NCBI RefSeq assembly: GCF_016026235.1
Contig: NZ_CP065613.1
DNA length: 64,000 bases
Direction: 5' to 3' (one strand)
From: Escherichia coli
GTDB taxonomy: Bacteria; Pseudomonadota; Gammaproteobacteria; Enterobacterales; Enterobacteriaceae
Shown: piece by piece, positions 59,201-62,200 of the stretch
How the letters are laid out: each line of letters begins with the position of its first letter
Position numbering within the stretch: the first letter of the stretch is position 1
Position numbers: made by a program

Positions 59201-62200
59201 CCTGATATTTATGATGTATCCCTTTGTTTTCCAGGCTGAAACCGCTTAACCACATAATGATACTGGCTAATGTTGCGATCAGACTCAATACCGTGACCCG
59301 CCCGGATGAATGACTGGCACCAAACCGTAGTCCAAATCCCCAGCGAGGATTTTTTTCATCCCTGAAATTTTGCTCAATTTGCATTCTACGGCTGTATAAT
59401 TTCATTACCTGTTTTGGCGAGAACTCAGTACTGTTTGTGAAAATAAACCATGGTGATTTCCCGGCAGTACGAGCTTTAGCCGTCACCGATGGTCTGGTTG
59501 CTCTTTCCTTCGAGCGTTTAAATCTACGACCTTTAGGCTTACTTTTATAAAGATAAAAATGCCCTTCATGTTGTGCATTTTTATCTCGACCCAGCAGGCC
59601 TTCACCTAAATAAATTGCTGTCGTTGATGCTTTTGTGCCTGAGTCCGACACCTTTTCCCAGCCATTACCAACATTGTAATAATGATTGCCCAGTACCCGG
59701 CAAATATAGGTCCAGCCACGGGAGCGGAGCTGTTGGAACCATCGCCCCTGAAAACCGGCATCTGTAATAACAATGACATCAGTCCCGGGGGAAAAGCACT
59801 CAGCAAGCGATTCCAGAAAACGCTCATGTACATCTGCATTCGCTGTCTGTGATGATGGAACGACACAACTCATCAACGGTAAAGAACGCCCGTCACATGC
59901 CAGGCTTGCCCGCAAAAGCTGAAAACGAGAGGCATGATAAGCACTCCAGTCAATGAGTATCACAACACGAGACATTCCCCGCGTAATCTTTTGGGTAATT
60001 CGCTGAAAAATGGTGGAAACCTCATTTTGCAAATGTCGATTCCCCAACAGTCGATCCACCCGCTTTATTTTGTTTTTAACTGATGCCGTACCGGTTAAAT
60101 GACGCCCGATACTGGTAAGTGTGAGGGAAGCGCCATTTATTACAGCATTAGTTGCGTCAATCAGTGATTTTTGACGGTAAAGATGCAAAGGGGCCAGTAT
60201 GTTGTTAAGGAAATTTTGGCATAATGAACGTGCAGGCATAGTGGTGATCTCCTTGAAATTGTTAGCACAATCAATTAGATCACATCTCACTATGCCTGTC
60301 TTGTTTTCTGGGGATTCCTCAGGGGACTCCCCTGTCTGCTCGCCTAATTACTGAACAATCCACTCCCTCTACATCAATTTACCGCTGGTTGATATTCTGA
60401 AAATGTATTTTCACCGAAATAGCAACCTATAAACAATAAAAATATATAGAAGATATCATTTGTTAATTAACAAGCATTTACGTCTCTTTTTTTCGGATTT
60501 AATTGTGAAATTTTAATCATCATATTCATAAAATCAATTATCCGTAAAAATTTTTCCAGATATGGTTTCTTCCATATTTGACATTTATTAATAATCATCA
60601 TTAGAATCCACGAAAAATAATATATTCATACAAACACAGACATATTTTGAAACGAATGATACATTTTTATGATGAATGCTTAAAACAATATTTAATCGAC
60701 ACCCATCACTGTCATTAATGTAAAGCAACATAGATCACCAATAATACAATGGACAACTCTACCGGCATTGATCGCTGGTCGGAGGCAATAAGGATTTTTA
60801 CATGAACTTGAAGAAGATTTTTTTCAGTGCTGTCACTGTTTCAGTTCTCTGCACATTAACGGGATGTGACTACATTGAAGAAGGCAAGCCAGAAAGTAGT
60901 TTACTGAAACAACAAGAAGAACATAACAATAAAATTGAGCTAATTGAAAAACAACAAGCACAGCTAAAGAGTCAACTGGAAACTATTCAAAAACAACAAA
61001 CTGGCATAATAACCAGTACAAAGACTTTAACTCACGTAATTAAATCCGTTAAAGAACAACAAAACACTTTTATTTTTACCGAGTTTAATCCGGCAAAAAC
61101 GAAGTATTTCATCCTGAACAATGGTTCGGTGGCTTTAGCGGGCCGAGTGTTATCTATTGACGCAACAGAGAATGGCAGTGTTATTCATATTTCACTGGTC
61201 AACTTATTAAGTATACCAATCTCAAACATTGGTTTTAATGCGACATGGGGTGGTGAAAAACCTGTCGATGCCAAAGAGTTTGCCCGGTGGCAACAATTAC
61301 TTTTCAACACATCAATGAAATCCACATTGAAATTATTACCAGGTCAATGGCAAGACATTAATTTGACACTGAAGGGTGTATCGCCGAATAACCTGGGATA
61401 TCTGAAGTTAGCCATCAATATGGAGAATATTCAGTTTGACAACCTTCCCTCTGCTGAAAATCGGCAGAAAAGAAGCAAAAAATAAATGCAGCTTCTGCGC
61501 TTATATCAAGGAATAGAGAACATCATTAATGAACAAAATATTTAAAGTTATCTGGAACCCTGCGACAGGGAATTATACTGTTACCAGCGAAACGGCAAAA
61601 AGCCGTGGTAAGAAATCTGGTCGCAGTAAGCTGTTAATTTCTGCCCTGGTCGCGGGTGGAATGTTTTCGTCGTTTGGGGCATTGGCGAATGCCGGGAATG
61701 ACAACGGTCAGGGTGTTGATTACGGTAGTGGATCAGCTGGCGACGGCTGGGTTGCTATAGGCAAAGGGGCGAAAGCAAATACTTTTATGAACACCAGTGG
61801 TTCCAGTACTGCTGTGGGTTATGAAGCTATAGCTGAAGGCCAATATAGCTCTGCCATCGGTTCAAAAACCCATGCGATTGGTGGTGCATCAATGGCGTTT
61901 GGGGTTAGTGCAATATCAGAAGGCGATAGAAGTATAGCACTGGGTGCCTCTTCGTATTCATTGGGCCAATACTCAATGGCCCTCGGCCGTTATTCAAAAG
62001 CATTGGGTAAATTGTCTATTGCTATGGGGGACTCTTCCAAAGCGGAAGGAGCAAACGCCATTGCGCTGGGAAATGCCACTAAAGCTACTGAGATTATGAG
62101 TATTGCTCTTGGCAACACCGCCAATGCGTCAAAAGCGTATTCAATGGCGCTGGGAGCAAGTAGCGTCGCATCTGAAGAAAACGCGATTGCCCTGGGGCGT

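What the first reader, a model, noticed from the sequence alone, without database searches (positions are those of the whole stretch)
60323..60801. AT-rich upstream region of the adhesin operon directly abutted by IS copy 2
About 480 bp of very AT-rich DNA (likely H-NS-silenced promoter region) separates IS copy 2 from the lipoprotein start. The IS truncates whatever upstream regulatory DNA existed and places the transposase 5' end, and any outward promoter, next to the adhesin control region.
Basis: inference. Interest (0 to 1): 0.3.

Follow-up and report, generated by a model that had tools for sequence, protein, structure and literature searches.

The report
IS insertion upstream of adhesin operon
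The AT-rich stretch is the normal, intact control region of the E. coli sadB–EhaG/UpaG adhesin operon, and a mobile element (ISEc60) has inserted cleanly next to it without deleting anything, which is an ordinary strain-specific polymorphism whose effect on expression is untested.

Summary
Positions 60323-60801 have 30.7% GC (core 60396-60740: 24.9%) against 49.9% for the window. The tract lies between the right end of an IS4-family element and the ATG of a SadB-type lipoprotein gene, which precedes a trimeric autotransporter adhesin gene.

The element is ISEc60 (59030-60321), 100% identical to copy 1 at 5084-6375. It is a simple insertion flanked by an 11-bp target duplication, GGGGACTCCCC. 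Removing the IS and one duplicate gives a yibL–sadB intergenic region 549/549 identical to the near-isogenic strain FDAARGOS_943. That same site is uninterrupted in 2256 of the 2268 complete E. coli genomes carrying this allele. So nothing was truncated; the IS only moves yibL 1.3 kb away.

The transposase 5' end does face the AT-rich tract, but no convincing outward promoter was found. The best native promoter candidate, TTGACA-18-TAGAAT at 60578-60607, lies 256 bp inside the intact tract. It is conserved even in the otherwise unalignable B2 (UpaG-type) allele.

The position is explained by ISEc60's strict preference for G4-N3-5-C4 palindromes; this is the only such site in the window.

H-NS silencing rests on literature only, and any regulatory effect is untested. 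The finding is ordinary and of low interest.

The parts
58592..58954 (+). yibL (YibL family ribosome-associated protein), the native upstream neighbour of the adhesin operon
   Evidence: NCBIfam NF008244, E 7.5e-57. RefSeq annotation in the comparator genomes agrees.
58986..59019 (+). Predicted stem-loop in the yibL 3' flank (CCCGCAU...AUGCGGG), immediately before the insertion site. It has no U-tract. It is retained intact left of the IS.
   Evidence: RNA fold of the emptied site: -32.7 kcal/mol, z = -2.47. A role as terminator is inference only.
59018..59028 (.). Left copy of the 11-bp target-site duplication GGGGACTCCCC
   Evidence: Direct reading. The FDAARGOS_943 alignments of the two flanks overlap by exactly these 11 bp.
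59030..60321 (-). ISEc60 (IS4 family) copy 2, 1292 bp. Terminal inverted repeats are at 59030-59047 and 60304-60321 (17/18 match). Base 59029 (C) could belong either to the IS or to a 12-bp imperfect duplication.
   Evidence: 1292/1292 identical to copy 1 at 5084-6375. 100% identical to copies that RefSeq annotates as 'IS4-like element ISEc60 family transposase'.
59049..60239 (-). ISEc60 transposase CDS (396 aa from ATG 60239; the open frame extends to GTG 60290). Its 5' end faces the AT-rich tract.
   Evidence: NCBIfam NF033591 IS4 family transposase, E 1e-107. Pfam DDE_Tnp_1, E 1.8e-20. PGAP coordinates on identical copies agree.
60322..60332 (.). Right copy of the target-site duplication GGGGACTCCCC
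60333..60801 (+). Native yibL–sadB intergenic DNA: a 63-bp C-rich/G-poor segment, then the AT-rich core (60396-60740, 24.9% GC). It is the presumed H-NS-silenced control region and 5' leader of the sadB–adhesin operon.
   Evidence: Composition. Identical to IS-free FDAARGOS_943. No Rfam family matches.
60578..60607 (+). Best candidate operon promoter: -35 TTGACA (60578-60583), 18-bp spacer, -10 TAGAAT (60602-60607). The predicted start is near 60614, about 188 nt before the ATG.
   Evidence: 11/12 consensus match, the top hit of the scan. The block is conserved (TTGACA-18-TAAAAT) in the B2 allele, which is only about 45% identical overall. No transcription start has been mapped, so this is inference.
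60802..61485 (+). SadB-type inner-membrane lipoprotein gene (DUF3251 / SadB-YajI family), first gene of the operon
   Evidence: phmmer hit to PDB 4C47 (Salmonella SadB), E 1.3e-67. RefSeq names in the comparators agree. Role described in PMC3953254.
61529..64000 (+). 5' part of the trimeric autotransporter adhesin gene (EhaG/UpaG/SadA positional orthologue). It is open to the end of the window.
   Evidence: Pfam ESPR, YadA_head and YadA_stalk. No stop codon in 823 codons. 99.92% identical to the FDAARGOS_943 YadA-like gene.
5084..6375 (-). ISEc60 copy 1, flanked by the 12-bp duplication GAGGATTTCCTC (5072-5083 and 6376-6387). It lies 302 bp upstream of lpfA (4781<-4245) in the lpfA–yhjX intergenic region.

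Best explanation
The region 60333-60801 is the unaltered native control region and leader of the sadB–EhaG/UpaG-type adhesin operon, which sits between the mtl and lld operons. It is an AT-rich tract of the kind bound and silenced by H-NS. Its likely sigma-70 promoter lies at 60578-60607. In this strain alone, ISEc60 made a recent cut-and-paste insertion into a GGGGACTCCCC palindrome 63 bp after the yibL stop codon and 469 bp before the sadB ATG. The insertion duplicated 11 bp and deleted nothing. The position is dictated by the element's strict target preference for G4-N3-5-C4 palindromes, not by the neighbouring promoter. The promoter and the entire AT-rich tract stay intact 256 bp from the IS end, and the transposase is transcribed away from the operon. 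The most likely consequence is therefore little or no change in adhesin expression: the operon stays under its native, probably H-NS-mediated, repression. The structure of the insertion is shown. The promoter assignment, the H-NS role and the lack of effect are inferred.
For: Structure of the insertion:
- The two IS copies are 1292/1292 identical, with IRs and TSDs.
- The transposase is IS4 family (NF033591, E 1e-107).
- Copies identical in sequence are named ISEc60 in RefSeq.

Empty site:
- FDAARGOS_943 matches window 49600-59028 at 99.98% and 60322-64000 at 99.92%, with an 11-bp overlap equal to the TSD.
- The emptied intergenic region is 549/549 identical to that strain.
- The reconstructed empty site is contiguous in 2257 genomes and in 2256/2268 for a 237-bp probe across the site.
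- 0 of 5426 genomes carry the IS/AT-rich junction.

Target preference:
- 11 insertion sites all have G-run/A+T core/C-run palindromic TSDs of 11-13 bp, in either orientation.
- The strict motif occurs once in the pre-insertion window, at this site.
- Flank GC ranges from 0.19 to 0.66, so AT-richness is not the targeting signal.

Promoter:
- The top consensus hit is 11/12, and it is conserved in the divergent B2 allele.
- No plus-strand promoter-like site was found at the IS end in the standard scan.

Operon identity:
- The lipoprotein matches SadB structure 4C47, E 1e-67.
- The adhesin has TAA domains, and the locus has mtl–lld synteny (PMC3953254).

H-NS repression of UpaG is stated in PMC5012682, citing Totsika et al. 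2012.
Against: - No expression data exist for this strain.
- IS insertions hundreds of bp upstream can derepress other H-NS-silenced operons such as bgl and flhDC (PMC5493358, PMC11043490), so a regulatory effect cannot be excluded.
- A weak outward-facing promoter-like site (TTGGCA-15-CATAGT, 60216-60242) exists inside the IS.
- The promoter assignment rests on consensus match and conservation between two alleles only; no transcription start has been mapped.
- H-NS binding was not tested, and the primary paper (PMC3302597) could not be read.
- The source strain is not in the 5426-genome collection, so the insertion's frequency in its own lineage is unknown.
Confidence: 0.8

Rival explanations
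1. Regulatory insertion. The IS changes adhesin expression in the manner of IS1/IS5 at bgl or flhDC. It could replace the GC-normal yibL flank with IS DNA and so disturb H-NS filament nucleation or bridging across the upstream tract. Alternatively, it could supply outward transcription from near the transposase 5' end, as pOUT does in IS10.
For: - The insertion lies about 293 bp upstream of the predicted start, within the range reported for activating insertions at flhDC (own knowledge; general phenomenon in PMC5493358, PMC11043490, PMC11894529).
- The tnp 5' end faces the operon.
- There is a weak candidate TTGGCA-15-CATAGT at 60216-60242.
- The second copy in the window also sits upstream of an adhesin operon, lpf.
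Against: - The whole AT-rich tract and the promoter candidate are untouched, and the IS sits 74 bp outside the AT-rich core.
- The standard scan finds no outward or hybrid promoter at the junction.
- The candidate has a 15-bp spacer, lies about 560 nt from the ATG, and has a terminator-like hairpin at 60557-60580 in between.
- The site choice is fully explained by the target motif, which is unique in the window.
- The insertion is seen in no other genome, so there is no sign of recurrent selection.
Confidence: 0.13
2. Truncation. The IS, or an IS-mediated deletion, removed native regulatory DNA upstream of 60323.
For: Only the impression that the IS abuts the tract. IS-mediated rearrangements do occur in this lineage: FDAARGOS_943 has a different right flank at copy 1.
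Against: There is a perfect 11-bp TSD, and the emptied site is identical base for base to the near-isogenic strain and collinear with more than 2250 genomes.
Confidence: 0.01
3. Insulation. In IS-free strains, some yibL transcription reads through into the sadB leader. The IS, which carries a terminator-like hairpin at 59129-59156, blocks this and lowers basal operon expression.
For: - No canonical intrinsic terminator follows yibL; there is only a hairpin without a U-tract.
- There is a plus-strand terminator-like site inside the IS left end.
Against: - The C-rich/G-poor segment at 60333-60395 looks like a Rho-utilisation region that would stop read-through anyway (inference).
- There is no evidence of read-through in any strain.
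- The operon has its own conserved promoter candidate.
Confidence: 0.06

Closest known systems
sadBA / ehaG / upaG locus of Enterobacteriaceae (Grin et al. 2014, PMC3953254; Totsika et al. 2012; Valle et al. 2008)
   Same: - Same chromosomal position between the mtl and lld operons.
- A SadB-type lipoprotein gene lies 43 bp upstream of a YadA-like trimeric autotransporter.
- The upstream region is AT-rich.
- The intergenic allele is 92-96% identical to that of O157:H7 (EhaG-type) strains.
   Different: An ISEc60 copy is inserted 469 bp upstream of sadB. This was not seen in any of 5426 complete E. coli genomes. B2/UPEC strains (UpaG-type) carry an essentially unalignable intergenic allele that shares only the promoter block.
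IS-mediated activation of H-NS-silenced operons (bglGFB by IS1/IS5; flhDC by IS1/IS3/IS5; fucAO fusion promoter)
   Same: An IS lies in the upstream region of an AT-rich operon reported to be H-NS-repressed, at a distance comparable with activating insertions at flhDC (PMC5493358, PMC11043490, PMC11894529).
   Different: - No phenotype or expression change is known.
- The IS lies outside the AT-rich core.
- A different IS family is involved, with a G/C-palindrome target rather than AT-rich/SIDD targets.
- No fusion promoter is detectable.
IS186 target specificity, GGGG(N6/N7)CCCC (Lee et al. 2016, PMC5009759)
   Same: - Both are IS4-family elements.
- The target is a palindrome of a G-run and a C-run around a short core.
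- Insertions occur in both orientations at one site, and there are few sites per genome.
   Different: - The ISEc60 spacer is shorter (3-5 bp, A+T-rich).
- The whole palindrome lies inside the 11-13 bp duplication.
- The element's own inverted repeats contain the same kind of motif (GAGGGATCCCC / GGGGATTCCTC).
IS10 pOUT (outward promoter near the transposase 5' end; own knowledge)
   Same: The weak candidate at 60216-60242 overlaps the tnp start in antisense.
   Different: There is no sequence similarity to IS10. The candidate is 9/12 with a 15-bp spacer, no RNA-OUT-like stable hairpin was found (z = +1.0), and it is untested.

Membership tests
IS4-family insertion sequence (ISEc60), simple insertion | DDE transposase of the IS4 family | tested here: met
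   NF033591, E 9.9e-108, 360 bits against a cut-off of 152. Pfam DDE_Tnp_1, E 1.8e-20.
IS4-family insertion sequence (ISEc60), simple insertion | Terminal inverted repeats | tested here: met
   TGAGGGATCCCCAGAAAA (59030-59047) against the reverse complement of 60304-60321, TGAGGAATCCCCAGAAAA: 17/18.
IS4-family insertion sequence (ISEc60), simple insertion | Direct target-site duplication, and an empty site in relatives | tested here: met
   11-bp GGGGACTCCCC on both sides. The empty site in FDAARGOS_943 carries a single copy. 2256/2268 genomes are uninterrupted.
IS4-family insertion sequence (ISEc60), simple insertion | Identity to the ISfinder ISEc60 reference | not testable with these tools
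   Only the RefSeq/PGAP product name 'IS4-like element ISEc60 family transposase' on 100%-identical copies is available.
sadBA / ehaG / upaG adhesin operon | Position between the mtl and lld operons | tested here: met
   mtlA-mtlD-mtlR-yibT-yibL lie upstream in the window. lldP-lldR-lldD follow in the near-identical FDAARGOS_943 locus. The lld side lies beyond the window.
sadBA / ehaG / upaG adhesin operon | [quoted passage not shown] | tested here: met
   PDB 4C47, E 1.3e-67 over residues 30-227. Lipobox LTGC at residues 19-22. 43-bp gap to the adhesin ATG.
sadBA / ehaG / upaG adhesin operon | Trimeric autotransporter architecture (ESPR signal, YadA head and stalk repeats, C-terminal anchor) | tested here: inconclusive
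   ESPR, YadA_head and YadA_stalk were found in the 823 aa inside the window. The membrane anchor lies beyond position 64000.
H-NS-silenced promoter region | AT-rich DNA well below genome GC, with A/T tracts | tested here: met
   24.9% GC core against 49.9% for the window. 13 A/T runs of at least 4 against 5.2 expected from window density.
H-NS-silenced promoter region | H-NS binding and derepression in an hns mutant | not testable with these tools
   Literature only: PMC5012682 lists UpaG among H-NS-repressed autotransporters, citing Totsika et al. 2012, which is not held.
IS-activated cryptic operon (bgl/flhDC type) | IS located in the upstream regulatory region of the silenced operon | tested here: met
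   The IS end is 256 bp from the candidate -35 and 480 bp from the ATG.
IS-activated cryptic operon (bgl/flhDC type) | Outward or hybrid promoter created by the IS | tested here: not met
   No plus-strand site of at least 9/12 with a 16-18 bp spacer at the IS end or junction. Only a 9/12 site with a 15-bp spacer, 80 bp inside the IS.
IS-activated cryptic operon (bgl/flhDC type) | Changed expression relative to the IS-free allele | not testable with these tools
   Requires reporter or RNA measurements.

The most novel reading that the evidence does not exclude
In a lineage where ISEc60 has expanded (about 38 copies in the closest complete genome), the element's palindrome-directed insertions upstream of two silenced adhesin operons could act as heritable regulatory switches. 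The two operons are lpf and sadB–EhaG. The switches would work by altering H-NS silencing or by adding outward transcription, so that IS expansion would be rewiring the strain's adhesin repertoire.
Probability: 0.08. Interest if true: 0.4.

Novelty: already known. Interest (0 to 1): 0.1.

Why it matters
It matters little beyond strain typing. The AT-rich tract is the known, conserved control region of a known adhesin operon, and the IS is a known element inserted cleanly at its preferred target. If the insertion did change EhaG/UpaG-type adhesin expression, it would add one more example to the established class of IS-modulated, H-NS-silenced operons. The insertion is a useful lineage marker because it is absent from 5426 complete genomes. 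The emptied and occupied alleles form a natural pair for a reporter test.

Tried and rejected
- **Deletion or truncation by the IS.** Rejected by the TSD and the identical empty site.
- **ISEc60 preference for AT-rich or H-NS-bound DNA.** This was suggested because both window copies adjoin the two most AT-rich tracts. It was rejected because nine other insertion sites have flank GC of 0.40-0.66, and all share the G/C palindrome instead.
- **Collecting more insertion sites.** A genome-contig scan with the IS end gave one hit only, in Candidatus Erwinia dacicola, and was of no use.
- **A non-coding RNA in the tract.** The Rfam scan at E<=1 gave only two chance miRNA-model hits far below threshold.
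- **An RNA-OUT-like structure at the tnp 5' end.** The fold is no better than shuffles.
- **Reading the primary EhaG/UpaG regulation paper (PMC3302597).** It is not held, so the H-NS evidence is second-hand.
- **Another interrupted allele (H200).** It turned out to be a divergent or recombinant intergenic allele without an IS.
- **H-NS high-affinity motif (tCGATAAATT).** Only matches with 2 mismatches were found, which is uninformative in AT-rich DNA.

Full report
**Context.** The end of the window is the E. coli mtlA–mtlD–mtlR–yibT–yibL region (yibL NF008244, E 7.5e-57). It is followed by an insertion sequence, an AT-rich spacer, a 227-aa lipoprotein gene (60802-61485) and a large adhesin gene that starts at 61529 and runs off the window. 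The lipoprotein matches the crystal structure of Salmonella SadB (PDB 4C47, E 1.3e-67). The adhesin fragment carries an ESPR signal peptide and YadA head and stalk repeats, with no stop in 823 codons. This is the sadBA / ehaG / upaG locus, which sits between the mtl and lld operons and is deleted in K-12 (PMC3953254). RefSeq names the O157:H7 orthologue EhaG.

**Checking the observation.** Positions 60323-60801 are 30.7% GC, with a core (60396-60740) of 24.9% and 200-bp windows as low as 22%. The window mean is 49.9%. Only 0.56% of all 469-bp windows are as AT-rich, and the only other such tract is 4565-5351. The first 74 bp after the IS are not AT-rich; they are 48.6% GC, C-rich and G-poor.

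**The IS.**
- The element spans 59030-60321 (1292 bp) and has 18-bp terminal inverted repeats matching at 17/18.
- It encodes an IS4-family DDE transposase on the minus strand (NF033591, E 1e-107; Pfam DDE_Tnp_1).
- It is identical at all 1292 positions to copy 1 at 5084-6375.
- It is 100% identical to copies that RefSeq annotates as 'IS4-like element ISEc60 family transposase'. PGAP starts that CDS at the ATG corresponding to 60239.
- The transposase 5' end therefore lies 82 bp from the terminus that abuts the AT-rich tract and is transcribed away from the adhesin operon.

**Nothing is truncated.**
- Copy 2 is flanked by GGGGACTCCCC on both sides (59018-59028 and 60322-60332). Copy 1 is flanked by GAGGATTTCCTC.
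- Strain FDAARGOS_943 is nearly isogenic here. It matches window 49600-59028 at 99.98% and 60322-64000 at 99.92%, and the two alignments overlap by exactly the 11 duplicated bases.
- After removing the IS and one duplicate, the yibL-stop-to-sadB-ATG interval is 549/549 identical to that strain.
- A 1197-bp reconstruction of the empty site is contiguous in 2257 complete genomes. A 237-bp probe across the site is uninterrupted in 2256 of the 2268 genomes that have this allele. The one partial match I inspected was a divergent allele, not an insertion.
- A probe across the IS/AT-rich junction is covered in 0 of 5426 genomes.
- This is a clean, derived, strain-specific insertion. All native upstream DNA is still present, with yibL and 74 bp of its 3' flank pushed about 1.3 kb away.

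**Why the IS sits there.**
- I collected nine further ISEc60 insertion sites from E. coli chromosomes and plasmids and compared their flanks.
- All eleven sites have 11-13 bp duplications that are palindromes of a G-run, a 3-5 bp mostly A+T core, and a C-run. Examples are GGGTAAATCCCC, GGGGGAAACCCC, GGGGCTACCCC and GGGGATTTTCCCC. Two sites are used in both orientations.
- In the 64-kb window the strict motif GGGG-N3-5-CCCC occurs only at the copy-2 duplication. A relaxed form occurs only at the two target sites and inside the IS ends themselves.
- Flank GC at the eleven sites ranges from 0.19 to 0.66, so AT-richness is not the targeting signal.
- This behaviour resembles the GGGG(N6/7)CCCC specificity of IS186, another IS4-family element (PMC5009759).
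- Target preference is thus a sufficient explanation for the position. It need not reflect selection on adhesin regulation.

**The AT-rich tract itself.**
- The best sigma-70-like site in the 2 kb scanned is TTGACA-18-TAGAAT at 60578-60607, an 11/12 match.
- B2 (UpaG-type) strains carry an intergenic allele that is only about 45% identical and essentially unalignable. Yet the block TTTGACAT…ATCATTA(G/A)AATC is conserved with the same spacing. This is a phylogenetic footprint that supports it as the operon promoter.
- The predicted start is near 60614, with a leader of about 188 nt.
- The site lies 256 bp inside the intact tract.
- No Rfam family matches the region.
- H-NS repression of UpaG/EhaG is reported in the literature (PMC5012682, citing Totsika et al. 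2012). I could not read the primary paper and cannot test binding, so this step is inferred from composition and second-hand citation.

**Outward promoter.** The standard scan finds no plus-strand promoter-like site at the IS end or across the junction. A relaxed scan gives only TTGGCA-15-CATAGT at 60216-60242. This is 9/12 with a poor spacer, overlaps the tnp start in antisense, and lies about 560 nt from the sadB ATG with a terminator-like hairpin (60557-60580) in between. The geometry recalls pOUT of IS10 (own knowledge). However, there is no supporting structure and no data.

**Most likely mechanism and rivals.**
- Best explanation (about 0.8): a neutral or nearly neutral ISEc60 insertion at its target motif, leaving the native, probably H-NS-silenced promoter region intact.
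- Regulatory effect in the manner of bgl or flhDC (PMC5493358, PMC11043490, PMC11894529): not excluded, because the distance to the promoter is within the range known for flhDC. Nothing here supports it specifically (about 0.13).
- Loss of possible yibL read-through: a minor alternative (about 0.06).
- Truncation: refuted.

**Novelty and interest.** The tract is a known control region, the IS is a known element, and the kind of event is commonplace. The only new facts are that this particular insertion is absent from 5426 complete genomes, and that ISEc60 shows a sharp palindromic target preference. The second point lies outside the finding. Interest is low.

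Noticed in passing
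window 5072-5083/6376-6387 and 59018-59028/60322-60332; loci L008-L016: ISEc60 has a sharp target preference. All 11 sites examined have 11-13 bp duplications that are G-run / A+T core (3-5 bp) / C-run palindromes, used in either orientation. The strict motif GGGG-N3-5-CCCC occurs once in the pre-insertion 64-kb window and is occupied. This is similar to, but distinct from, IS186's GGGG(N6/7)CCCC. I found no description of it in the two papers that mention ISEc60.
   Followed up: partly
window 59031-59041 and 60310-60320 (also 5085-5095, 6364-6374): The IS terminal inverted repeats themselves contain the target-like palindrome (GAGGGATCCCC / GGGGATTCCTC). This suggests the transposase reads a similar motif at its ends and at targets. 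L008 shows one ISEc60 inserted immediately beside the end of another.
   Followed up: no
window 4245-6387: IS copy 1 lies 302 bp upstream of lpfA (long polar fimbriae operon lpfABC..., minus strand), in the lpfA–yhjX intergenic region. That region is the other extreme AT-rich tract of the window (19% GC). Both ISEc60 copies in the window therefore sit upstream of adhesin operons.
   Followed up: partly
L017 (NZ_CP065615.1 4144533-4157031) versus window 4834-7665: FDAARGOS_943 shares the lpfA-side junction of copy 1 (99.4%). On the other side of the IS, however, it has slyX–fkpA instead of the yhjX-like MFS gene found in the window. This indicates an IS-mediated inversion or recombination between the two otherwise near-identical strains. 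That genome carries about 38 ISEc60 places, whereas full-length copies occur in only 14 of 5426 genomes.
   Followed up: partly
L010 versus L011 (RMDEC332 / RMDEC364, CS1-type fimbrial major subunit–TcfC usher intergenic region): The same GGGGCTACCCC site, between a fimbrial subunit gene and an usher gene, carries ISEc60 in opposite orientations in two related EIEC-like strains. This means either independent insertions or an inversion.
   Followed up: no
L002 8356-8914 versus window 60333-60801: The yibL–sadB intergenic region exists as two essentially unalignable alleles, B2/UpaG-type and non-B2/EhaG-type, about 45% identical. They share only short islands: the promoter block and ATTCTGAAAAT at 60394-60404. 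The second island could be a regulator binding site.
   Followed up: partly
window 60333-60395: A C-rich, G-poor segment (19 C against 8 G in 63 nt) lies directly downstream of the yibL hairpin. It looks like a possible Rho-utilisation site for yibL termination, and the IS now separates it from yibL.
   Followed up: no
L007 (Candidatus Erwinia dacicola contig NZ_MAYS01000218.1, 901-929): An exact 29-nt match to the ISEc60 left end occurs in an insect-symbiont genome. This was the only hit among the representative genomes of 100,044 species.
   Followed up: no
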